Origin: a bacterium
Lineage (GTDB): Bacteria; Zhuqueibacterota; Zhuqueibacteria; Oceanimicrobiales; Oceanimicrobiaceae
Assembly: GCA_046757025.1 (NCBI GenBank)
Contig: JBHHXN010000170.1
Span: 1-11,115 of the forward strand
Length of the DNA stretch: 11,115 nt
Reading direction: 5' to 3'
This document shows, piece after piece, positions 1-11,115 of the stretch. The translations under genes were made by a program, and so were the position numbers. Numbering within the stretch: the stretch's first letter is position 1; each line of letters opens with the position of its first letter. The notes below the pieces were generated by a model that saw nothing but the letters and a program-made list of their open reading frames with translations, was not told the origin of the DNA and searched no databases.

Positions 1-193
1 GACCACAACAAAGCAAGTCATTTAAACATTTGCGGCTCCGCCGCGCTAGGAATCAAGTAGGTTCTCCAGTTCTCTTTAAAGTCTATTTTAACAAATTTTG
101 AATGAATTCATGATTGATGAGAGGTGGGGTTTCACTATGAAACGAATACGCGGCAGAATTAACCGCGTTTGCATCCCCATTCCCAGCACGTCT

Positions 194-889
194 TTATTCC
201 AGCCAGTCCGGGATTGATTCTGCAACCGGCCAGTGCGATTCAAGCCACGATCGATATTCGTTGTCAGAATGGACGTACAAAAATCCCCGCATGGTGTAAT
301 GCCCGTACCCGCACAGCTCCGCACAAGCGATCTCATATTTGCCGGTTTCCGTGGCTTCGAACCAGGCTTCGATTTCCCGACCGGGCACCAGATCCTGCTT
401 GAGCCGCAACACCGGCACGAAAAAACTGTGGATCACGTCTTGAGAAGTCAGGACGACTTTCACCACCTGATTTACCGGCACATGCATATCGTTTTCTTGC
501 GTGAGATCATCTTCGGTGCCGAAAGCGCCGTCGGGCCCCGGGTAGGTGATGATCCAGTTGAATTGCTTACCCTTGATTTGCACGGTCACATCGCTGACGG
601 GCACATCCCCTTTTATTTTGTCGTACGCTTTTGCACCTTCAAAGTCAATCCAGAGATCCAGCACCAGAATGATGGCCGCCGGCACCAGAATCCAGGCGAC
701 TTGCGCCCAGCTTTCTCCTCTGACAAACGAGGCTTTTTTGCCTTCGCGTTTGCGATAGCGAAACAAAAAATAGATGATGGCGCCTTCGCCAAGCAGAAAG
801 CCGATTCCGACTATATAAAATATTAAATAAAATACCGAGTCAATGTCGGCTCCATAAGTCGATATATTTTTCGGAAACCAATCAAACAT
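194..889 (-). CDS. coxB: Cytochrome c oxidase subunit II (CuA-binding), 231 aa, two N-terminal TM helices, no fused cytochrome c domain
   Basis: Complete CuA ligand set DVIHSFFVP...CAELCGYGHYTM (H, C-x-E-x-C-x3-H-x2-M); GKQFNW electron-entry strand; two hydrophobic helices; AGGAGG RBS (899-904, minus strand) 9 nt before the ATG. Confidence 0.93.
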   Translation of the reverse strand: MFDWFPKNISTYGADIDSVFYLIFYIVGIGFLLGEGAIIYFLFRYRKREGKKASFVRGESWAQVAWILVPAAIILVLDLWIDFEGAKAYDKIKGDVPVSDVTVQIKGKQFNWIITYPGPDGAFGTEDDLTQENDMHVPVNQVVKVVLTSQDVIHSFFVPVLRLKQDLVPGREIEAWFEATETGKYEIACAELCGYGHYTMRGFLYVHSDNEYRSWLESHWPVAESIPDWLE

Positions 890-1268: not shown

Positions 1269-1616
1269 CTAAGAGCGAATCATGGTCAGCAGCATTTTGA
1301 AATTGTCCGTGGCCGTGAGGGCATGCGGCCGGTTTGCCGGTAAAATAATCATCTCACCTTCCTGCAGGTGAAACGATTGGCCTGCGATGATGACTTCTGC
1401 CGCTCCCTCGAGCAGATGCACCAGCGCATCAAATGGGGCAGTGTGTTCACTCAATCCCTGACCCTTGGCGAAGGCAAATAGTGTCACCGTCCCCGTGGGC
1501 TTTTTGATGATGGTTCGGCTCACCACTGAGCCATCCTGATAATTTATCAGCTCGTTTAGGGGAGCGACTTTGCTCGAAAATTCGTTCACCGTATTTTCCG
1601 TTGATTTATTTTGCAT
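1269..1616 (-). CDS. Cupin domain protein (HP0902-like small cupin), 115 aa
   Basis: Cupin motifs LFAFAKGQGLSEHTAPFDALVHLLEG and GEMIILPANRPHAL; AGGA RBS 6 nt before the ATG. Confidence 0.88.
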   Translation of the reverse strand: MQNKSTENTVNEFSSKVAPLNELINYQDGSVVSRTIIKKPTGTVTLFAFAKGQGLSEHTAPFDALVHLLEGAAEVIIAGQSFHLQEGEMIILPANRPHALTATDNFKMLLTMIRS

Positions 1617-2483: not shown

Positions 2484-2900
2484 ATGCCGGTACTTTTTAG
2501 TCGAGCTTGTGAATACGCCATACGCGGACTGGCAGAGATGGCCAGCCAACCAGAAATAACTTCCTGGACCATTCAAGAATTAGCGAAACAAACGGATACG
2601 CCGGCGCCCTTTCTGGCGAAGACGTTTCAGACACTGGTGAAATCCGGCATTCTCAACTCCGCCAAAGGCCGCCACGGCGGGTTTTCCTTTGCACGCCCTG
2701 TAGATAAAATCTATATCATGGAAATTGTAAATATTTTAGATGGCCCGACTCTCGCCAATGATTGCGCTCTGGGATTTCCTGAGTGCAGCGGAATCAATCC
2801 CTGTCCTTTTCATGCCCAGTGGGGTGAAATCCGCGAAACCATTATCCACGCTTTAAGCAGTCAATCTCTCATCGAATTTGCTCAACAGCAGCGTGGATAA
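2484..2900 (+). CDS. Rrf2 family transcriptional regulator (Fe-S binding type), 138 aa
   Basis: FSRACEYAIR N-terminus, PAPFLAKTFQTL recognition helix, SAKGRHGGF wing, C94-x6-C101-x5-C107-x2-H110; AAGGAG RBS at 2468-2473. Confidence 0.93.
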   Translation: MPVLFSRACEYAIRGLAEMASQPEITSWTIQELAKQTDTPAPFLAKTFQTLVKSGILNSAKGRHGGFSFARPVDKIYIMEIVNILDGPTLANDCALGFPECSGINPCPFHAQWGEIRETIIHALSSQSLIEFAQQQRG

Positions 2901-3217: not shown

Positions 3218-3673
3218 ATGCCTATCATTTTCACAAAAGGATGTGAATACGCCTTGCAATCGGTTTTATATCTCGCATCAATGCCTGATTGCACGCCTGT
3301 TTTTCAAAGGGATATTTCCACCGCCTTGATGATTCCGCCGCATTTTTTAGGCAAAGTTTTGCAAGCGCTGGCACGTAACGGATTGGTAACTTCCCAAAAA
3401 GGTAAAACCGGAGGTTTTGTTCTCAGCAAAGCGGCGAAAGATATTTCACCGTACGATATCATCGCAGCCATTGATGGTCCGGCGTTTCTTAATAAATGTG
3501 TAGTGGGCTTTCCCGGCTGCGATGACGCCACGCCCTGTCCGATGCACGATCAGTGGAAAAAGATTAAACAAGAAATCGTTCACATGTTAAAAAATAAAAA
3601 CCTAGAACAACTCAGTAAGGAAATGGACATCAAATTGGAGTCCATCAAAAAACTCAATCCGCGTTCTGATTGA
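3218..3673 (+). CDS. Rrf2 family transcriptional regulator (Fe-S binding type), 151 aa
   Basis: FTKGCEYAL, PPHFLGKVLQAL, SQKGKTGGF, C-x6-C-x5-C-x2-H (CVVGFPGCDDATPCPMH); aligns without gaps to the upstream paralogue; no obvious Shine-Dalgarno sequence. Confidence 0.93.
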   Translation: MPIIFTKGCEYALQSVLYLASMPDCTPVFQRDISTALMIPPHFLGKVLQALARNGLVTSQKGKTGGFVLSKAAKDISPYDIIAAIDGPAFLNKCVVGFPGCDDATPCPMHDQWKKIKQEIVHMLKNKNLEQLSKEMDIKLESIKKLNPRSD

Positions 3674-3737
3674 CTTCAAACAAGAATGAATGCTCTAACT
3701 ATGTATTCCATTTCAAAATTGATTGTCGGGGACCTGT

Positions 3738-3804
3738 CTTCATGCTGAGTCCCAATTCAAATTCGGGAAACCATGATCTTCACCCTGAGCGGAGGGTGAA
3801 GATC
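3738..3804. repeat. Two REP-like copies; the second forms a perfect 12-bp hairpin
   Basis: CTTCATGCTGAG (3738-3749); GATCTTCACCCT(3775-3786)-GAGCGG-AGGGTGAAGATC(3793-3804); same family as 1822-1916 but lacking the internal TCGAAG. Confidence 0.7.
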
Positions 3805-3902
3805 GGTAGCTGCCATTATCTCTTGTGAACCCTACAACCATTTCTGAAATGGAGCATTAAGCGTAGATAGATAACTCAAATCAACAGCAATTCACCAGGA
3901 AA

Positions 3903-5786
3903 ATGTTTATGAATTCAAATTTGTTGCAAGTTGAAATTCCGGACGTGGAGTACTGGAAAAGTCAGATCAAATGTCAGAGTGGCTGCCCCGTGCATACCGA
4001 CGCACGCGGCTATGTGCGCGCCATTGCGGAGGGCGATTATGAAAAAGCCTATCTCATTGCGCGCGCGCCCAATCCGCTGGCGTCCATGTGCGGTAGAATT
4101 TGCGGGGCACCGTGCGAAGCCGCCTGCAGAAGAGCCGATCTCGATGAGGCGGTTTCCATACGTGCATTGAAACGTTTTGTCACGACAAAATTTGGTCCGG
4201 AGTCGGGAAAGCTCGCCAAAAGTCCGCTGGAAACACTGCAAAACTTGTTCAAAAAAAGCCTGCGAGAATGCGAAGGCATGGAAGGGCTGATGAATTTTCT
4301 AACTCATTTTAAAAATCCCACCTTTCCTGCAGATGCGCCCACGGTGGGCATCATCGGTTCGGGGCCGGCCGGACTGGCAGCGGCACACGACCTCTGTCTC
4401 ATGGCCATTAAACCTGTCATTTACGAAATGGAACCCGTTGCGGCAGGCATGCTCTATCTGGGAGTGCCGGAATACCGTCTGCCCCGCGACCTGATCAAAG
4501 CCGAGGTGGAAGTCATCAAGGCCATGGGCACGGAAATTATCTGCAATGTGCAGATCGGCAATGACGTGACGCTGCAAGAACTACGGCAAAAACACGACGC
4601 GGTGCTGATCGCGGTGGGGGCGAAAAAGTCCCGCAAGATTCCCATCCCCAACATCGACGCCAAAGGGGTGTTAGGGGGGGTCGATTTTCTGCGCGATGTG
4701 GCTTTAAACCAGTCGGTGGAGCTGGGAAAGAAACTCGTGGTCATCGGCGGCGGCAACGTGGCGTACGACGTGGCCAGAACCCTGGTGCGGCAGACCGAAT
4801 ACGATGTTTCGCGCACAGCCCTGCGGCAGAAAGGCGTAAAGGAAGTGCACCTGGTTTGCCTGGAATCGCTGGAGGAAATGCCGGCCGACACCACCGAGAT
4901 CGTGGAAGGCGAGGAAGAAGGCGTCATCCGGCATAATTCTCTGGGTCCGAAAGAAATTCTGGTGGACGACCAGGGCCGGGCCTGCGGCGTACGATTTGTC
5001 AGATGCCTGTCGGTTTTCGATGAAAACAAACGTTTCGCGCCCAAATTCGACGAAAACGAAACCGTGGATTTACCGGCAGATAATGTTATTCTCTCCATCG
5101 GTCAGGCCACTGATTTGTCGTTCATCGACAGCGAGGATGTCGCCCTGACCGACCGCGGTCAATTAAAACTGGACCCGACTCTTAACCAAACCGAGGCTAC
5201 GGGGGTGTTTGCGGCCGGCGATGTGGCTACCGGGCCGGGCCTCATGATTCAAGCCATTGCCAGCGGTAAACAGGCGGCGAGAAAAATTTTCACTTATCTG
5301 AAAAACCAAAATCTTTCTGCGAAAACCAGCAGCCAGCACCACGATATTCCGGCTTACTCCAAAGAAAGCGGCTACGAATCCCTGGCGCGCGAAGGCGTGC
5401 CGGCCATGTCGCCCGAAGAGCGCAAGCGGGCCATGAACGTGACCGTGGAGAAGGGATTTTCAGAGGCCCAGGCCGTTCGCCAGGGAAGCCGCTGCTTTAA
5501 CTGCGCGGTCAACACCATTTTTGACAGCGAAAAATGTATTTTGTGCGGCGGATGTGCCGACGTCTGTCCGGAAGCCTGTCTCAAACTGGTGCCCCTGGAA
5601 GTACTGCAGGGCAATGCGGATTTTGAACAACTGCTTAAAAATCGATATAATGACCAACCGCTGACAGCGGGCGGCGCCATCATCAAAGATGAAACGATTT
5701 GCATTCGATGCGGATTGTGTGCGGAACGCTGTCCGGTCGGAGCCATTACCATGGAAGCTTTTAATTTTAAGGAGAGTTTCGTATGA
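3903..5786 (+). CDS. FAD-dependent NAD(P)H oxidoreductase of the GltD/NfnB/DsrL-like superfamily with a C-terminal 2x[4Fe-4S] ferredoxin domain, 627 aa (start may be the ATG at 3909)
   Basis: CQSGCP...CGRICGAPCEAAC N-terminal Fe-S domain, IIGSGPAG (FAD), VIGGGNVA (nucleotide), VFAAGD, RCFNC, CILCGGCADVCP and CIRCGLCAERCP; no signal peptide; AGGA (3897-3900) is better spaced to the ATG at 3909. Confidence 0.9.
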   Translation: MFMNSNLLQVEIPDVEYWKSQIKCQSGCPVHTDARGYVRAIAEGDYEKAYLIARAPNPLASMCGRICGAPCEAACRRADLDEAVSIRALKRFVTTKFGPESGKLAKSPLETLQNLFKKSLRECEGMEGLMNFLTHFKNPTFPADAPTVGIIGSGPAGLAAAHDLCLMAIKPVIYEMEPVAAGMLYLGVPEYRLPRDLIKAEVEVIKAMGTEIICNVQIGNDVTLQELRQKHDAVLIAVGAKKSRKIPIPNIDAKGVLGGVDFLRDVALNQSVELGKKLVVIGGGNVAYDVARTLVRQTEYDVSRTALRQKGVKEVHLVCLESLEEMPADTTEIVEGEEEGVIRHNSLGPKEILVDDQGRACGVRFVRCLSVFDENKRFAPKFDENETVDLPADNVILSIGQATDLSFIDSEDVALTDRGQLKLDPTLNQTEATGVFAAGDVATGPGLMIQAIASGKQAARKIFTYLKNQNLSAKTSSQHHDIPAYSKESGYESLAREGVPAMSPEERKRAMNVTVEKGFSEAQAVRQGSRCFNCAVNTIFDSEKCILCGGCADVCPEACLKLVPLEVLQGNADFEQLLKNRYNDQPLTAGGAIIKDETICIRCGLCAERCPVGAITMEAFNFKESFV

Positions 5787-6253
5787 AAAATCATCGTGAT
5801 GAAACCAATGAAATCAACCGTCGAGATTTTTTAGGGAAATTAGCGGTTGGCTCCTTAATCGGGGCCGGCTCCATGGCGTTCATCGGGGTGATCCAGTTGC
5901 CCCTGCCCAAAGTGCTCAACGAACCGCCTAGTGTATTCAAAATCGGATTTCCAGCCGAATTCCAGCCGAATACCTTTAAAACCATTGCTGATAAAAACGT
6001 TTTTGTGTTGCGGGATACCGAAGGGTTCCGAGCTTTGTCTGCGATTTGCACGCATCTCGGTTGCATCGTGTCGCAGGTTGAATGGGGTTTTGTCTGTCCC
6101 TGCCACGGCTCGAAATTCGATCAGCAAGGTCAGGTCACCGGCGGCCCGGCCCCGAAGGGTCTGGAATGGTTAAAAGTGAGCTTGAGTCCGGACGGTCAGT
6201 TAACCGTGGATCTCGACAAAAAAGTAGCCGCCGATGTGGTATTCATCGTTTAG
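5783..6253 (+). CDS. qcrA: Rieske [2Fe-2S] subunit of a Rieske/cytochrome b complex, 156 aa
   Basis: Tat motif NRRDFLGK plus TM helix; CTHLGC and CPCHGSKF boxes; GPAPKGL; ATGA overlap with the upstream stop; AAGGAG RBS at 5769-5774. Confidence 0.93.
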   Translation: MKNHRDETNEINRRDFLGKLAVGSLIGAGSMAFIGVIQLPLPKVLNEPPSVFKIGFPAEFQPNTFKTIADKNVFVLRDTEGFRALSAICTHLGCIVSQVEWGFVCPCHGSKFDQQGQVTGGPAPKGLEWLKVSLSPDGQLTVDLDKKVAADVVFIV

Positions 6254-6370
6254 GCGGCGAGCCGTTCGATTCAGCCGGACGTCAACCAAATTGAAATTGT
6301 ACAGCGCAACAGTAGCGGTTTTGGCAATTATTCTGATTAAAAATTTGACCTTTCATTTGGAGAAAAGCTG

Positions 6371-7933
6371 ATGGAAGAAAATGGATTGAAAACATTTGCA
6401 GACAACGTGAAGGAAGTGAAACGCACCTTAAAAGAGTCCGTGCGCCGATACGAATGGCCGCCCAAATCCGACCGAGAAAAATCCCAGGCCATATTTCAGA
6501 ATTTCTTTCTGCACATTCAATCGGCGCGTATGCACAAATTCAGCCTGAAACCGCTCTACACCCTCGGGCTGGGTTTGATGACCTTTTTCCTTTTTCTTAT
6601 CCTGTGTGTCACCGGCATTTTGTTGATGGTGTATTACAATCCCACCACCAGTCTTGCTTATGACAACGTTCGCGACATTAGTTTTGTGGTGGCTGCTGGC
6701 AAGTATATGCGCAACATTCACCGCTGGGCGGCGCACGGTATGGTGCTCATGGTGATTCTGCACATGGTGCGGGTATTTTACACCGGCTCCTACAAAAGAA
6801 ACCGCAAATTTAACTGGCTCATCGGCATGGCGTTGCTGGCGATCACGCTCATGCTCAGTTACACGGGTTATCTGCTGCCCTGGGATCAGCTTGCATACTG
6901 GGCGGTGACCATCGGCGCCAACATCGCGGCCTCGCCGAGGGAGCTCACCGACGCACTCGGTATCACACAGTATATCGATTTCGGCGGTTTTCAAAAACAA
7001 TTGCTCATCGGCGGAAACACCGTGGGGCAGGAAGCCCTGACCCGCTTTTATCTTCTGCACGTAATGATCCTGCCCATTGCCGCCATCACCCTCATCGGAG
7101 TGCATTTCTGGCGGATTAGAAAGGACGGCGGATTGAGCCGGCCCGACAACGCGGATGAAATCATCTTGAAGGAAGAAGGAGTGGAAATCGACAAAGATTT
7201 CTACCAGAAAGGCGAATTCAACCTGAACAAAAATAAAACTTACGGTTTGATGGCGCTGGTGAAAGACCGGTCACCGCAGTTAAATGCCGGTCCGGACAAC
7301 ACAATCATGACCTGGCCGGTCGGAATATGGGCTGAAGTCGCGGTTTTCATGTTGACCCTGGCGGTGATGACGGTTCTGGCGTATTTTTTCGATGCGCCCC
7401 TCAAAGAGATCGCCAATCCCGCCATTCCGGAAAATCCAGCCAAAGCGCCCTGGTATTTTTTGGGTTTGCAAGAGCTGGTTTCCTATTCCGCTTTTATGGG
7501 CGGCATCGGCATCCCCACCATCGTCATCGTGGGTCTCATGCTCATTCCGTATTTAGACAAAGAAGACCGGCATTTTGGCGTGTGGTTTTCCGGAACGGAA
7601 GGCAAGCAGGTTGCCATAAATTCGCTTATTTTTTCAACGGTCTTTTTGGTAGCCTTGTTGGCGTTCACGGTGAAGTTTGGCTGGCTGAGAAACTGGTTTC
7701 CTGCCATTCCACAGATCGTCATCGTGCTCATCAATCCCGGATCGTTCATCGTACTCATGTTTGCCTGGTGGTCGCTGCACACGCTGAAATTCACCGGTTC
7801 TACCCGGCTGGCGGCCATTGCGCTCTTCACCTGTTTTTTGATTGGATTTATTATTTTAACCATCATGGGCACCTATTTCAGAGGTCCCAACTGGGATTTT
7901 TACTGGTCTCCTTCACAATGGCCGGTACACTGA
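6371..7933 (+). CDS. qcrB: Cytochrome b subunit (cytochrome b6-like N-terminal half fused to a subunit IV-like C-terminal half), 520 aa
   Basis: RNIHRWAAHGMVLMVILH and LLHVMILPIAAITLIGVH heme-b His pairs, TGYLLPWDQLAYWA, TRFYLLH, NPAKAPWYFLGLQE (PEWY-equivalent), terminal FRGPNW; GGAG RBS at 6359-6362. Confidence 0.93.
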   Translation: MEENGLKTFADNVKEVKRTLKESVRRYEWPPKSDREKSQAIFQNFFLHIQSARMHKFSLKPLYTLGLGLMTFFLFLILCVTGILLMVYYNPTTSLAYDNVRDISFVVAAGKYMRNIHRWAAHGMVLMVILHMVRVFYTGSYKRNRKFNWLIGMALLAITLMLSYTGYLLPWDQLAYWAVTIGANIAASPRELTDALGITQYIDFGGFQKQLLIGGNTVGQEALTRFYLLHVMILPIAAITLIGVHFWRIRKDGGLSRPDNADEIILKEEGVEIDKDFYQKGEFNLNKNKTYGLMALVKDRSPQLNAGPDNTIMTWPVGIWAEVAVFMLTLAVMTVLAYFFDAPLKEIANPAIPENPAKAPWYFLGLQELVSYSAFMGGIGIPTIVIVGLMLIPYLDKEDRHFGVWFSGTEGKQVAINSLIFSTVFLVALLAFTVKFGWLRNWFPAIPQIVIVLINPGSFIVLMFAWWSLHTLKFTGSTRLAAIALFTCFLIGFIILTIMGTYFRGPNWDFYWSPSQWPVH

Positions 7934-7990
7934 TGAAGGGATTCAATCCAATGAAAAAAACAGACGCACGCTATCGCGATATTTTTCTAA

Positions 7991-10045
7991 ATGGAGAACA
8001 AAATGAATCTTGAAAAGCATTACGATCGATTCTACAAAATCATCACCATTGTTTCCAGCCTGGTTTGTATGATCTTTTTCGGATTCGCAGCCATCGAGGA
8101 AAACTTTTTACGTGAATGGAAAAACTACCAGGCGGACTTTAAAGATATTTTGATTGCCAGTGCTGAAAACGACCAGCAAAGACAAGCGGCCGAAGAATTT
8201 CCAATTGAAATACGGCAGGTGCTTTTGCCCGATTTCAAACGCGTGGATAGATGCATCAGCTGCCACAACGGCATAGAGAACCCCAACATGGCTGATGAGA
8301 ATATTCCACATGCCGCACATTCGGGTGATTACGTCCAGAACCATCCCGTGGAAAAATTCGGCTGCAGCATCTGCCACGGCGGCCAGGATCGGGCGCTGGG
8401 CACCAAACACGTGTTTGCGATGGAAGAAGACGTGCACTGGCAGTATCCGGTGTTGCCGCTGCAATACGTGCAGTCGTCCTGTGGAAAATGTCATCTGGCG
8501 GTTTTCGACGACACGCAAAGCCTGACCGGTGCCGAAGTCTTGATGCAGGGTAGAAAGCTGTTTTACCGCGAAGGATGCCTGGGATGCCACAATGTGCGCG
8601 GCACCGGCGGTAGCGTGGGGCTGGAGCTCACCGACCAGGGACGCAAAACCAAACATGAATACAGTTTTAAATTCGTGGAAGGCGAGCACACTGTGCAAAA
8701 CTGGCTACGGGAACATTTCATTTCCCCGCAAAAAGTGTCGCAGGTTTCAGAAATGCCGGCCATCGACCTAAACCCGGAAGATATGGACGCGCTCATCACC
8801 TTTACCATGAGTTTGTACTCGCCGGAATATCCCACGGATTACTATACCTTCGAGGCCATTGCTGAATTTAAAGGAAAGCGGAAAGAATTCAATGGCACCG
8901 AAGCCTACGGCCTCTTCTGTGCGGTGTGTCACGGTGAAAACGGCCAGGGCAAAGATTACCGCGTGTTTCAAGCCAGCGTGCCGGCGTTAAACAATCCGGA
9001 TTTTCTGGCTGTAGCTTCGGAGGATATGATCCAATTTTCCATCCGCAAAGGACGCAGCGGCCGTAACATGTCGCCCTGGTCGGAGGCTTTTGGCGGACTC
9101 AAGGAGGAAGAGATCCATGGTCTGGTAGAATTGATTCGAAGCTGGAAAACGCCGCCGCCAACCTTTGCGGAAGTGAAAACAACCCGCGGCGACGCGGTTT
9201 TTGGAGAACAGCTTTACCGTTCGCGTTGCGGCACCTGCCACGGCCTAGACGGCGAGGGAGGGATTGGTCCTTCTCTGAACAATCAGGATTTTCTGGCCAT
9301 TGCCTCCGATGAATTTCTTTACAAAACTATCGTCCACGGCCGAAGAAATACGGCCATGCCTTCCTGGTCGCGGCTTTCGAAAGAAGAAATCGCTAGTATC
9401 ATCGCGGTGCTGCGCAGATGGCAAAAAACGCCGCAACGACGTCTTTCATCTCAAAAAATCACGGGCAACATCGAAAACGGCCGGCAATTGTTTACTTCCA
9501 TGTGCGTCGGTTGTCACGGCAGATATGGCCAGGGCTCGGTGGGGCCGGCGATCTTGAACAAAGATTTTTTAATCGCCGCCACGGATCAATTTATTCTTCA
9601 TTCCATTTCGCGCGGCAGGGGGCAGAGCGCCATGCGCTCCTGGGCGAAAGAATTTCAGGGGATGGAACAGCTCAGCAAACAGGAAATGAATGACATCGTC
9701 GCTTTTATGCGCGGCCAGGAAGACGTCCAGCCGGAGGGCATTTACACCAACATTTCGCCGGGAACGGTTTCCAAGGGCAAAGAGCTTTACGAAGGCATGT
9801 GCAGCGGCTGCCACGGAAAAAACGGCGAGGGCAAACACGGACCGGCTTTGAACAATCAGGAATTTCTCAACGCGGCCACCAATGGCTTTATCCAGGCCAC
9901 CATTGCGTTGGGCCGGTCGGGAACCGCAATGCGTTCCTGGGCCAAAGGCGCACAAGGTTATGAAGAGCTCAGCGCCGACGAGATTAACGACATCACCACT
10001 TATATTCGTTCGTGGCAGAAACAGGTCATGAAAATCAAAAATTAA
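7991..10045 (+). CDS. Membrane-anchored octaheme cytochrome c, 684 aa (start may be the ATG at 8003)
   Basis: N-terminal TM helix; 8 CxxCH motifs (CISCH, CSICH, CGKCH, CLGCH, CAVCH, CGTCH, CVGCH, CSGCH); GGAG at 7993-7996 suits the ATG at 8003. Confidence 0.92.
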   Translation: MENKMNLEKHYDRFYKIITIVSSLVCMIFFGFAAIEENFLREWKNYQADFKDILIASAENDQQRQAAEEFPIEIRQVLLPDFKRVDRCISCHNGIENPNMADENIPHAAHSGDYVQNHPVEKFGCSICHGGQDRALGTKHVFAMEEDVHWQYPVLPLQYVQSSCGKCHLAVFDDTQSLTGAEVLMQGRKLFYREGCLGCHNVRGTGGSVGLELTDQGRKTKHEYSFKFVEGEHTVQNWLREHFISPQKVSQVSEMPAIDLNPEDMDALITFTMSLYSPEYPTDYYTFEAIAEFKGKRKEFNGTEAYGLFCAVCHGENGQGKDYRVFQASVPALNNPDFLAVASEDMIQFSIRKGRSGRNMSPWSEAFGGLKEEEIHGLVELIRSWKTPPPTFAEVKTTRGDAVFGEQLYRSRCGTCHGLDGEGGIGPSLNNQDFLAIASDEFLYKTIVHGRRNTAMPSWSRLSKEEIASIIAVLRRWQKTPQRRLSSQKITGNIENGRQLFTSMCVGCHGRYGQGSVGPAILNKDFLIAATDQFILHSISRGRGQSAMRSWAKEFQGMEQLSKQEMNDIVAFMRGQEDVQPEGIYTNISPGTVSKGKELYEGMCSGCHGKNGEGKHGPALNNQEFLNAATNGFIQATIALGRSGTAMRSWAKGAQGYEELSADEINDITTYIRSWQKQVMKIKN

Positions 10046-10057
10046 GGTACGGGGAGC

Positions 10058-10102
10058 GGCTGCTGGCAATTGGCTGTTAGCTGTTGGCTATTAGTAGTTG
10101 GC
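10058..10102 (+). repeat. Heptamer tandem array (consensus RGCTRTT), 6 units
   Basis: GGCTGCT GGCAATT GGCTGTT AGCTGTT GGCTATT AGTAGTT GGC. Confidence 0.8.
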
Positions 10103-10123
10103 CTTTGTTCTGAAATGAGTCGT

Positions 10124-10205
10124 ATGACGTTTGAGATTTAAAAATTTGCATATTTGGTATAAAAGCCAAAAAACATCTATGGGCAAACTAAAATCCAATA
10201 GCTAA
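10124..10205 (+). pseudogene. Remnant of a four-helix-bundle (23S rRNA intervening-sequence protein-like) gene
   Basis: Removing one base after ATG ACG TTT gives MTFRFKNLHIWYKSQ..., resembling the family's N-terminal F-x-x-L-x-(V/I)-W-x-K-(A/S) motif; the frame ends KLKSNS-stop inside the right heptamer array. Confidence 0.45.
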
Positions 10206-10224
10206 AAGCTAACAGCCAATAGCT
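10190..10224 (-). repeat. Heptamer tandem array, 5 units, inverted relative to 10058-10102
   Basis: Minus strand AGCTATT GGCTGTT AGCTTTT AGCTATT GGATTTT; 10207-10220 is the exact reverse complement of 10069-10082 (14/14). Confidence 0.8.
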
Positions 10225-10291
10225 GAATTTTCACAAATCAAGTAATCAACATTTTAGCATTATCAATGATAAATGGATGAAGGAGCGCAAA

Positions 10292-11115
10292 ATGAATCCT
10301 GATAAAAACAAAAAGCACTGGACGTTAACCCGACGCAAATTTCTGCAGGCGTCGGCAACCATGTCGGCCGTCACGGCGGCCAACGTCATCGGGTGTAAAG
10401 GCCGGGAAACGGAGATCAAAATGGTGAAAACCGCCCCCCCGGCTCAGACCAACAATTTCCTGTCGGCGTGTCCTTACTGCGGCGTGGGCTGCGGCACCAT
10501 GATTCAGGTGGAAAACGGCAAGATCGTCGGCATGGTGCCGGATAAAAATCACCCCACCAATCGCGGCATGCAATGCATAAAAGGTCTCACCGCCAACGAG
10601 CCCATCTACATCGATCGACTCACCAAAGTTTTGGTGCGTAAAGACGTTTGGGCGGAATGGCAGAAGCCCGGCCACGGCGATCTCGAATTTACCTCAAAAA
10701 CCAAAGACGCCTTCGACGACGATCTCTGGGAAGAAGTGTCCTATGACGAAGCCAGCGAAATGACCGCCCACAAAATCGCCCATCTGGTCCAGAAATACGG
10801 CGGAAATTGCATCGGGCTTTACGGTTCCGGTCAGTTGACTTTTGAGGGCCAGTACCTGGAAAACAAATTCATGAAAGCGGTGCTGGGTTCCAACACCATG
10901 GAAGCCAATGCCCGCATGTGCATGACCAGCGCGGTGACCGCTTATTTTAAAACCCTGGGCTCGGACGCGCCGCCCACCTGTTACGAAGACACCGAAATGT
11001 GCGACTTCATTTCCTTCTGGGGTCACAACCCGCGCGAAGCTCATCCCATCATTTTCTGGCGGGTAGCGGATTACAAGAAAGCCGCCAACATTCCCACCCT
11101 GGTGGTGGATCCGCG
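10292..11115 (+). CDS. napA: Tat-exported molybdopterin nitrate reductase catalytic subunit (NapA/NasA family), 5' partial, 274 codons, runs off the window
   Basis: Hand translation: MNPDKNKKHWTLTRRKFLQASATMSAVTAANVIGC...CPYCGVGC...QCIKG...GSGQLT...NARMCMTSAV...GSDAPPTCYED...WGHNPREAHP...VVDP; open to the window end; AAGGAG RBS at 10280-10285. The napA symbol is tentative. Confidence 0.85.
   Translation, partial: MNPDKNKKHWTLTRRKFLQASATMSAVTAANVIGCKGRETEIKMVKTAPPAQTNNFLSACPYCGVGCGTMIQVENGKIVGMVPDKNHPTNRGMQCIKGLTANEPIYIDRLTKVLVRKDVWAEWQKPGHGDLEFTSKTKDAFDDDLWEEVSYDEASEMTAHKIAHLVQKYGGNCIGLYGSGQLTFEGQYLENKFMKAVLGSNTMEANARMCMTSAVTAYFKTLGSDAPPTCYEDTEMCDFISFWGHNPREAHPIIFWRVADYKKAANIPTLVVDP

What the first reader, a model, noticed from the sequence alone, without database searches (positions are those of the whole stretch)
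3903..11115. NAD(P)H-oxidoreductase + Rieske/cytb + octaheme cytochrome c wired to an exported nitrate reductase: candidate novel nitrate-respiration module
Seen: five co-oriented genes, namely a cytoplasmic flavo-Fe-S oxidoreductase, Rieske (ATGA-coupled to it), cytochrome b, octaheme cytochrome c and a Tat nitrate reductase; no napB/napC/napGH lies upstream within the window. Established: periplasmic Nap normally draws electrons from quinol through NapC or NapGH/NapB without a Q-cycle, while Rieske/cytb clusters containing an NAD(P)H oxidoreductase and a multiheme cytochrome c are known from anammox bacteria (Kuenenia), where they were proposed to couple quinol oxidation to NAD(P)+ reduction. 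Inference: here the high-potential branch (Rieske to octaheme c) could end at nitrate, while the low-potential branch exchanges electrons with NAD(P)(H). That would make Nap energy-conserving or a driver of reverse electron transport.
Basis: partly seen in the sequence, partly recalled or inferred. Interest (0 to 1): 0.88.

Follow-up and report, generated by a model that had tools for sequence, protein, structure and literature searches.

The report
NAD-linked bc complex feeding unnamed molybdoenzyme
A conserved gene cluster puts an anammox-type Rieske/cytochrome b complex, with its own NAD-binding flavoprotein, directly in front of an exported molybdenum enzyme from an unnamed sister family of the nitrate reductases; it likely splits quinol electrons between a probable nitrate-reducing enzyme outside the membrane and, possibly, NAD inside, which would make a long-untested proposal about such complexes testable.

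Summary
The five genes are real, co-oriented and conserved. The same order occurs in 15 distinct loci; 11 show all five genes, and contig ends cut the other 4. The linked cytochromes b are not one clade (AU test rejects it), so the pairing arose or was swapped in more than once. (1) The reductase is not NapA. It belongs to an unnamed, widespread Tat-exported clade outside NapA, NasA and Fdh, with the nitrate-reductase catalytic core but an altered funnel; this genome's canonical napA lies on another contig. (2) napG/napH-like genes follow on two other contigs, though napB, napC and napD do not. (3) The octahaem is not HAO-like: it is a trihaem plus five class-I domains, sitting where the family normally has a dihaem cytochrome. 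The flavoprotein-Rieske-cytb-multihaem cassette is modular and also sits beside NosZ, Idr/Aio-like and Nar/Nxr-like enzymes. Most likely menaquinol electrons bifurcate, one branch to the molybdoenzyme (probably nitrate) and one to NAD. Substrate, direction and co-transcription are untested. This scan noted the same system before on other DNA (e1-5048663, e1-4921389, e1-1126018).

The parts
2484..2900 (+). Rrf2-family regulator, first copy (Cys94/101/107)
   Evidence: PF02082 and TIGR00738 over cut-off; cysteines; role in this operon inferred
3218..3673 (+). Rrf2-family regulator, second copy; an Rrf2 gene also precedes the oxidoreductase in L042, L043, L149, L193 and L195
3903..5786 (+). Cytoplasmic GltD/NfnL-type FAD and Fe-S oxidoreductase, 627 aa, with a C-terminal 2x[4Fe-4S] domain; VCLES where the three best PDB matches have YRR, suggesting NAD rather than NADP (inferred)
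5783..6253 (+). Rieske [2Fe-2S] protein, 156 aa, twin-arginine leader and one helix, Ser/Phe type (CPCHGSKF); ATGA overlap with the oxidoreductase
6371..7933 (+). Cytochrome b, 520 aa, b6 and subunit IV fused, about 8 helices; haem ligands His117/131/230/245; extra conserved His48; Thr64 where b6 has the haem c(i) cysteine; Qo motif APWYF
7991..10045 (+). Membrane-anchored 8-haem cytochrome c, 684 aa: N-terminal helix, trihaem, then five class-I domains; the C-terminal repeats resemble the dihaem cytochrome that precedes this molybdoenzyme family elsewhere
10066..10223 (.). Small inverted-repeat element (27-nt arms) in the 246-nt spacer, with similar pieces on 7 other contigs; contains one weak terminator-like hairpin (10086-10103)
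10292..11115 (+). N-terminal 274 aa of a ~906-aa Tat-exported Mo-bisPGD enzyme (possible lipoprotein, VIGC) of an unnamed clade beside NapA and NasA; the rest lies on G000:C355:1-1584, and napG/H-like genes on G000:C178:10410-4844 (minus strand)

Best explanation
The window holds the front of one conserved respiratory gene cluster in which an anammox-type Rieske/cytochrome b complex likely oxidises menaquinol and splits the electrons: one branch would run through the Rieske centre and the eight-haem cytochrome to an exported molybdoenzyme that probably reduces nitrate, and the other would cross the membrane through the b haems to the cytoplasmic flavoprotein, which is predicted to reduce NAD+. 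Shown: the genes, their order, their cofactor motifs, the repeated pairing, the separate clade of the molybdoenzyme, and the napG/H-like genes behind it. Inferred: co-transcription; electron transfer from the cytochrome's class-I repeats (standing in for the family's usual dihaem cytochrome and for NapB) to the enzyme's [4Fe-4S] cluster; nitrate as substrate (about 0.7); NAD reduction rather than NADH oxidation (about 0.5). NapG/H would give a second entry from quinol without bifurcation, so the cell could choose between a plain route and one that makes NADH and moves charge across the membrane.
For: Conserved order in 15 distinct loci, 11 with all five genes in view. Among 167 genomes of the phylum, 5 had the molybdoenzyme at E<=1e-150, and in all 5 it directly follows this cytochrome. 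Cytochrome-to-enzyme spacer is -4 to 44 nt in 10 of 13 other linked loci. Linked cytochromes b are not one clade: 6 changes on the tree, at least 3 forced by starred branches, p-AU 1.4e-49. A class-I cytochrome ends directly upstream of the enzyme in 75 of 76 loci with upstream DNA (51 of these built the profile used). That profile's best hit among 146 CxxCH ORFs of this genome is the window cytochrome, 152 bits against 44 for the next. Lys98, Cys211, Met212, Asp226, Gln426 and Arg433 are kept in 21 of 21 family rows and 16 of 16 NapA-type rows; 13 of 13 Fdh rows have His at 212. The orthologue's model (pLDDT 87.7) is closest to D. desulfuricans NapA. NapC/NirT precedes or flanks the operon in 17 loci and napG-like genes follow in 64 of 66, which points to a reductase. 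menB and menD are over cut-off. The Rieske protein is Ser/Phe type like Kustd1480, measured at +335 mV, and closest to 9rk4/9rk3. His48 is present in 56 of 57 oxidoreductase-linked cytochromes b (1 gap) and absent from the 5 canonical ones. With MK -70 mV and NAD -320 mV and nitrate +433 mV, my arithmetic gives about +1.0 eV gained against 0.5 eV plus about 0.3 eV of membrane potential (recalled value) spent per nitrate.
Against: napG/napH-like genes in the same cluster offer a route that needs no bc complex, and only 6 of 80 kept family loci have a cytochrome b upstream (3 more downstream), so the family usually works without the cassette. The cytochrome's repeats are not specific to this enzyme: 17 related 8-haem cytochromes with no molybdoenzyme nearby score 114-153 bits on the same profile, overlapping the window's 152 and the 149-178 of 7 linked ones. 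His48 is also kept in 14 cytochromes b with no oxidoreductase nearby. The funnel differs from NapA: Ile388 for Met (21 of 21 against 16 of 16), no Glu at 227, and Leu/Phe/Met at 434 where all 77 NapA- and NasA-type rows have Glu or Asp. The genome already has a canonical nap locus. Unlike the Kuenenia models, this cytochrome b is unsplit and lacks the haem c(N) cysteine. The window's spacer is 246 nt with a weak terminator-like hairpin. The genome has two complex I-like nuoL genes, so a need for another NADH source or sink is not obvious.
Confidence: 0.45

Rival explanations
1. Same wiring, opposite low-potential branch: the flavoprotein oxidises NADH and feeds electrons into cytochrome b to re-reduce quinone, so the assembly acts as a self-contained NADH-to-nitrate chain or redox valve.
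For: Sequence cannot tell direction. The b6-type Arg five residues after the last haem His is kept in 55 of 57 linked cytochromes b, so a cytoplasmic-side quinone site may survive. This genome carries at least three such cassettes, which would suit acceptor-specific NADH disposal. Hauser et al. raise this mode themselves.
Against: It would waste most of the NADH-to-nitrate drop in a genome with complex I-like genes, the objection Hauser et al. make. The haem c(N) cysteine is missing. The Ser/Phe Rieske of Kustd1480 is high-potential.
Confidence: 0.2
2. The molybdoenzyme is fed only by NapG/H through the class-I repeats; the bc cassette is co-regulated but sends its high-potential electrons elsewhere, for example to an oxidase.
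For: napG-like genes follow in 64 of 66 and napH-like in 61 of 66 family loci, while 71 of 80 show no cytochrome b nearby. A divergent coxB lies at 194-889. Similar 8-haem cytochromes occur without the enzyme.
Against: In linked loci the only cytochrome before the enzyme is the chain that also carries the bc-type trihaem, so Rieske and enzyme would share one haem wire. The pairing recurs on separate branches. coxB was not seen beside the orthologous cassettes.
Confidence: 0.15
3. The wiring is as proposed, but the substrate is another oxyanion or oxide (chlorate, bromate, selenate, an N- or S-oxide), not nitrate.
For: Family-wide funnel changes at 227, 388, 432 and 434; separate clade; three of five genomes also hold a canonical NapA; paralogous cassettes sit beside Idr/Aio-like and type II DMSO-reductase-family enzymes.
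Against: The Cys-Met, Asp, Gln and Arg core of nitrate reductases is kept. No chlorite dismutase was found in this 95%-complete genome. None of 88 flanking proteins scanned pointed to another substrate. The family is common in marine genomes.
Confidence: 0.17
4. The enzyme works oxidatively (for example nitrite to nitrate) and drives the bc complex in reverse to make NADH.
For: Class-I haems with a candidate distal Met are typical acceptors of oxidases (recalled; sequences). One paralogous cassette lies before a 1160-aa Nar/Nxr-like gene.
Against: NapC- and NapGH-type quinol dehydrogenases accompany the family. Both characterised Cys-ligated sister families, NapA and NasA, are reductases.
Confidence: 0.03

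Closest known systems
Kuenenia stuttgartiensis NAD(P)-linked Rieske/cytochrome b complexes Kuste4569-4574 and Kustd1480-1485 (Hauser et al., bioRxiv 10.1101/2025.06.25.661457, also PMC12954380)
   Same: NAD(P) oxidoreductase, Rieske, b6-like cytochrome b and multihaem c in one cluster; menaquinone; Rieske closest to 9rk4/9rk3 and Ser/Phe type like Kustd1480; a conserved N-terminal His in cytochrome b.
   Different: Cytochrome b is unsplit and lacks the haem c(N) cysteine; no HAO-like octahaem; the next gene is a molybdoenzyme, which supplies a candidate high-potential acceptor that the paper says is not proposed for Kustd1480-1485; the host is not an anammox bacterium.
Periplasmic nitrate reductase Nap (D. 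desulfuricans NapA 2jio; NapAB with NapGH or NapC)
   Same: Fold (TM 0.91 by target length), Tat export, [4Fe-4S] motif, Cys-Met ligand, Asp/Gln/Arg core, napG/H/F-like neighbours.
   Different: About 27% identical; far below the NapA cut-offs; separate clade; funnel residues changed; no napB or napD in the cluster; a class-I cytochrome is the partner; here joined to a bc complex.
Assimilatory nitrate reductases NasA/NarB/NasC
   Same: GQPNAMG motif, Cys ligand, same fold family.
   Different: Exported, not cytoplasmic; ER[L/F] instead of GRE; below cut-offs; respiratory neighbours.
Haloarchaeal Rieske/cytb-Nar cluster (PMC3509893) and bc-to-cytochrome c4-to-SerABC of Thauera selenatis (Lowe et al. 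2010; title only, seen in the reference list of PMC3735179)
   Same: A bc complex feeds an outward-facing molybdenum oxyanion reductase through a high-potential cytochrome.
   Different: Those are NarG/type II enzymes, and no NAD-linked flavoprotein is described with them in the passages seen.

Membership tests
NapA | Score over the TIGR01706 / NF010055 cut-offs | tested here: not met
   Full-length orthologue 287 of 930 and 312 of 904 bits; the genome's C12 gene passes with 1008
NapA | Tat signal and N-terminal [4Fe-4S] motif | tested here: met
   TRRKFL and CPYCGVGC; RRxF/L in 115 of 120 homologues
NapA | Cys ligand followed by Met; conserved Lys, Asp, Gln, Arg | tested here: met
   21 of 21 family rows, as in 16 of 16 NapA-type rows
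NapA | Funnel Glu after the Asp, Met of W.MG.NQ, acidic residue after the Arg | tested here: not met
   Ala/Thr227, Ile388 (WGIG[YF]NQ in 120 of 120), Leu/Phe434 with Glu moved to 432
NapA | Groups with NapA in a tree | tested here: not met
   The family lies outside a 119-row NapA+NasA+Fdh group, FastTree support 0.949; midpoint root, long branches present
NapA | napB and napD in the cluster | tested here: not met
   PF03892: no hit in the genome; the only napD is at C12; 0 of 80 family loci matched the C12 NapB-like protein, a weak single-query test
NapA | Reduces nitrate | not testable with these tools
   needs enzyme assay
NasA/NarB/NasC | Cytoplasmic, GQPNAMGGRE motif, over the NasA/NasC cut-offs | tested here: not met
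   Tat leader; GQPNAMGERL; 275 of 1000 and 228 of 1100 bits
Formate dehydrogenase (FdhF type) | His after the Cys/Sec ligand | tested here: not met
   Met212 in 21 of 21; His in 13 of 13 Fdh rows; 321 of 666 bits on TIGR01591
Anammox-type NAD(P)-linked Rieske/cytb complex | NAD(P) flavo-Fe-S oxidoreductase, Rieske, cytochrome b and multihaem c in one cluster | tested here: met
Anammox-type NAD(P)-linked Rieske/cytb complex | Split b6 + subunit IV with covalent haem c(N) | tested here: not met
   One 520-aa chain; Thr or Ser at the Cys position in 56 of 57 linked sequences, 1 gap
Anammox-type NAD(P)-linked Rieske/cytb complex | His for the proposed extra b haem at the dimer interface (Kuste4571 His43, Kustd1481 His62) | tested here: inconclusive
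   His48 is conserved, but no Kuenenia cytochrome b sequence was in hand to align, and it is also kept where the oxidoreductase is absent
Anammox-type NAD(P)-linked Rieske/cytb complex | Quinol-driven NAD(P)+ reduction | not testable with these tools
   still a proposal in Kuenenia too
HAO/OTR-type octahaem cytochrome c | HAO-family multihaem domain | tested here: not met
   Pfam gives Cytochrom_C and CBB3 repeats plus a c7-like trihaem, no HAO family

The most novel reading that the evidence does not exclude
A portable, quinol-bifurcating Rieske/cytochrome b module makes NADH by coupling it to whichever high-potential periplasmic reductase is plugged in behind its multihaem (here a third, unnamed class of soluble nitrate reductase; elsewhere NosZ, iodate-reductase-like or type II enzymes). 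Periplasmic nitrate reduction by this enzyme would then be electrogenic and NADH-generating, and nitrate-reduction surveys would be missing a widespread marine family.
Probability: 0.3. Interest if true: 0.88.

Novelty: new variant of a known kind. Interest (0 to 1): 0.68.

Why it matters
NAD(P)H formation by a Rieske/cytochrome b complex has been proposed for anammox bacteria but not shown, and for one of their two complexes no high-potential acceptor has been proposed. Here such a complex sits in front of a defined terminal enzyme, repeatedly, and its paralogues sit in front of others, which gives natural comparisons (with and without the flavoprotein, different acceptors). Separately, the molybdoenzyme family is widespread (185 matches in one genome scan), misses all curated nitrate-reductase cut-offs, and has a member in a named Thiohalobacter strain (P0053), so its substrate can be tested and would bear on marine nitrogen or oxyanion budgets.

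Tried and rejected
Complex prediction of the orthologous molybdoenzyme (residues 54-760) with the last three cytochrome domains gave no answer (score 0.01, mark 0.32); not used for or against. No RNA holder listed, so co-transcription is untested. Promoter and terminator scans were at or below chance (7 against 6.0, and 7 against 11.8). No single Logan contig met the tool's 31-letter rule for bridging C170 to C355: a 447-base record has 30 letters on the window side. A Pfam scan of 88 flanking proteins (85 taken from the 148 drawn out of 172 candidates or from named families, 3 added) gave no substrate clue at E<=1e-15. The plasmid search gave only ~30% matches. The idea that His48 marks oxidoreductase-bearing complexes failed as a strict marker. 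A unique dihaem fusion was weakened by controls. The 'NosZ' label for G000:C103 is probably a cupredoxin-domain match and was not counted. The oxidoreductase motif pattern missed 21 of 52 sequences; 31 of the 31 found lack the RR pair. Futalosine (PF02621), NrfA (PF02335), NapB (PF03892) and chlorite dismutase (PF06778) families were not found in this 95%-complete genome. Rejected: chance neighbourhood, canonical NapA, NasA, Fdh, HAO-type octahaem. Paper searches that found no description of this enzyme clade or this pairing; the library lacks most subscription journals, so this is weak.
Full report
Observation. The window is the whole of contig C170 of a 5.96-Mb, 374-contig genome. The five genes lie on the + strand as described: oxidoreductase 3903-5786, Rieske 5783-6253 (ATGA overlap), cytochrome b 6371-7933, cytochrome c 7991-10045 with eight CxxCH motifs, and a Tat-leader molybdoenzyme from 10292 to the contig end. 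Two Rrf2 genes precede them. Close relatives carry the submitters' label 'uncultured Calditrichaceae' (L059, L084). The DNA is held in hydrothermal-vent metagenome runs of one study, which may be its source.

The locus continues. Orthologous loci (cytochrome b 84-87% identical) give the full order: oxidoreductase, Rieske, cytochrome b, octahaem, 906-aa molybdoenzyme, napG-like, napH-like, second napG-like, a 187-aa protein of no family, napF-like, and a 511-aa membrane Fe-S protein. In this genome residues 380-906 lie on C355 and the rest on C178. A 447-base contig at depth 8.38 in run X3 lies on the last 30 bases of the window and, by its length and depth the same record, on the first 107 of C355; this implies a 310-base gap, the length that the orthologue predicts, but it is one letter short of the tool's bridging rule. 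C355 and C178 overlap by 55 identical terminal bases, inside repeated DNA. So napG/H-like genes do follow. NapB was not found in the genome, napD only beside a canonical napA on C12, and the three weak NapC-family hits lie on other contigs.

The molybdoenzyme. The orthologue misses every curated cut-off: NapA 287 of 930 and 312 of 904, NasA 275 of 1000, NasC 228 of 1100, Fdh 321 of 666. It is 27% identical to the canonical NapA of this genome. Relatives at 53-63% occur in Alpha- and Gammaproteobacteria, Myxococcota, Entotheonella and others: 185 matches, the best 80 examined. In a tree of 147 proteins the family lies outside a group of 119 NapA-, NasA- and Fdh-type rows (support 0.949; FastTree, midpoint root, long branches; 18 rows were checked against NCBIfam, the other labels are by motif). 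It keeps Lys98, Cys211, Met212, Asp226, Gln426 and Arg433 in 21 of 21 rows, as 16 of 16 NapA-type rows do, while 13 of 13 Fdh rows have His at 212. It differs at 227 (Glu in NapA), 388 (Ile against Met) and 434 (Leu/Phe/Met against Glu/Asp in 77 of 77), with a Glu at 432 in 20 of 21. The predicted fold is closest to D. desulfuricans NapA. Its usual operon has a class-I cytochrome directly upstream (75 of 76 loci), napG-like (64 of 66) and napH-like (61 of 66) genes downstream, and NapC/NirT in 17 loci. I read it as a periplasmic oxyanion reductase, probably for nitrate; that is inference.

The cytochrome. Residues 1-290 match the 5-haem cytochromes of paralogous cassettes; residues 300-680 are four class-I repeats that match the stand-alone dihaems at 30-41%. 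A profile of 51 dihaems scores the window protein at 152 bits, against 44 for the next of 146 CxxCH ORFs in the genome. In linked loci the multihaem occupies the dihaem's position. The control weakens the case: 17 related octahaems in a clade with neither oxidoreductase nor molybdoenzyme score 114-153, and some hexahaems before type II enzymes score 94-106. A shared class-I output module is better supported than a unique fusion.

Is the pairing chance? Of 167 genomes of the phylum, 5 have the enzyme at E<=1e-150, and all 5 have it behind this cytochrome; they are kin. Beyond them the pairing occurs in L081, L103 and L115 (of 80 loci picked by the enzyme) and in 7 of 80 metagenome loci picked by the cytochrome (of 525 matches). 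Counting L059, L060 and L084 once with L041, L042 and L045, that makes 15 distinct loci, 11 with all five genes in view. Spacers are -4 to 44 nt in 10 of 13 other loci; the window's 246 nt holds a small inverted-repeat element. On a 38-row cytochrome b tree (a chosen subset of the 91 sequences) the 13 linked rows need 6 changes, at least 3 forced by starred branches, and one clade is rejected (p-AU 1.4e-49). Some 'unlinked' rows are cut by contig ends, which could inflate the count of changes.

The cassette is modular. The same four genes sit beside an AioA-family gene with a Rieske and two peroxidase genes (G005, G009, G013, G014; the idrABP1P2 arrangement is named in the listing), a clade II NosZ (G005, G021), Nar/Nxr-like and other type II enzymes (G003; 9 metagenome loci) and a cbb3-type oxidase (G037). 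This genome has at least three copies (C170, C12, C103). The Rieske protein's best solved relatives are 9rk4 and 9rk3, the Kuenenia proteins. It is Ser/Phe type like Kustd1480, measured at +335 mV. Cytochrome b keeps four haem histidines and His48 (56 of 57 oxidoreductase-linked sequences; absent from 5 canonical ones; kept in 14 without the oxidoreductase), but is unsplit and has Thr at the haem c(i) cysteine position. The oxidoreductase has VCLES where its three best PDB matches have YRR, which suggests NAD; the role of those arginines in binding NADP is recalled. menB and menD are present.

Mechanism. Menaquinol would be oxidised at the APWYF site. One electron would go by Rieske, trihaem and class-I repeats to the enzyme's [4Fe-4S] and molybdenum; the other by the b haems, perhaps a His48 haem, four Fe-S clusters and FAD to NAD+, as modelled for Kuenenia. 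With -70, -320 and +433 mV this is downhill by about 0.5 eV per nitrate before the membrane potential, and about 0.2 eV after (my arithmetic, with a recalled potential of about 150 mV). NapG/H would be a parallel entry. None of the transfer steps, the substrate or the direction is shown. Rivals are NADH oxidation through the same parts (0.2), another oxyanion (0.17), NapGH-only feeding (0.15) and oxidative operation (0.03).

Comparison and novelty. The cassette works like the anammox complexes but fails two of their structural features. The enzyme works like Nap by core residues and neighbours but is not a NapA member. A bc complex feeding an outward-facing molybdoenzyme has precedents in haloarchaea and, by title, in Thauera. 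Eight searches found no description of the clade or the pairing, in a library that lacks most subscription journals; I recall that reviews of multiple Rieske/cytb complexes mention oxidoreductase-bearing clusters outside anammox bacteria, but could not check. What I saw of each paper: Hauser et al., parts 1, 3, 4 and 5 of 5 of the text (supplement not seen; it may bear on the His48 equivalence); PMC3509893, PMC3735179, PMC10100899 and PMC10609526, passages; iodate-reductase papers, search listing only; Lowe et al. 2010, title only. Earlier notes of this scan describe the same system on other DNA; they agree but are not independent support. Verdict: a real, conserved new variant of a known kind, interest 0.68.

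Noticed in passing
window 194-889 (-): Cytochrome c oxidase subunit II (TIGR02866 over cut-off), divergent from the cluster, with no subunit I in the window; not seen beside the orthologous cassettes.
   Followed up: partly
window 1-55, 1640-2040, 3700-3860; G000:C355:1640-2199: Interspersed repeat elements with many copies in the genome (116 matches on 88 contigs for 1617-2483; 51 on 40 contigs for 3674-3902); they probably explain the fragmented assembly.
   Followed up: partly
G000:C12:20000-53000: Large respiratory island: a second oxidoreductase-Rieske-cytb-pentahaem cassette, an 827-aa molybdoenzyme with Fe-S and membrane partners, two octahaems, canonical napD-A-G-H with a small dihaem that PF03892 does not recognise, and another Rieske/cytb with a nonahaem.
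   Followed up: partly
L047, L048, L051, L053: The cassette directly follows two dihaem peroxidases, a Rieske and an AioA-family gene, the arrangement of iodate reductase clusters; a possible bc-fed iodate respiration in this lineage.
   Followed up: partly
L055, L056: The cassette directly precedes a Sec-dependent (clade II) nosZ.
   Followed up: partly
L150-L167, L171, L052: A derived clade keeps Rieske, cytochrome b (with His48) and the octahaem but has no oxidoreductase nearby; a divergent ~780-aa octahaem with TPR repeats stands in its place in most of these loci.
   Followed up: partly
L105, L106, L117: In three Gammaproteobacteria a canonical Rieske and cytochrome b pair lies just downstream of the same molybdoenzyme operon, a possible independent link to bc complexes.
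   Followed up: partly
L041:10933-11496; G000:C178:7270-7839: A ~190-aa exported protein with an N-terminal HH motif and C-terminal anchor, in 37 of 80 family loci, with no Pfam or NCBIfam match; possibly a maturation or metal-binding factor.
   Followed up: no
L193:12774-15493: The molybdoenzyme gene appears in two overlapping ORFs (282 and 624 aa): a frameshift, an assembly error or a natural split.
   Followed up: no
window 1269-1616 (-): Small cupin; similar cupins lie near two other cassettes (L046, L226).
   Followed up: no
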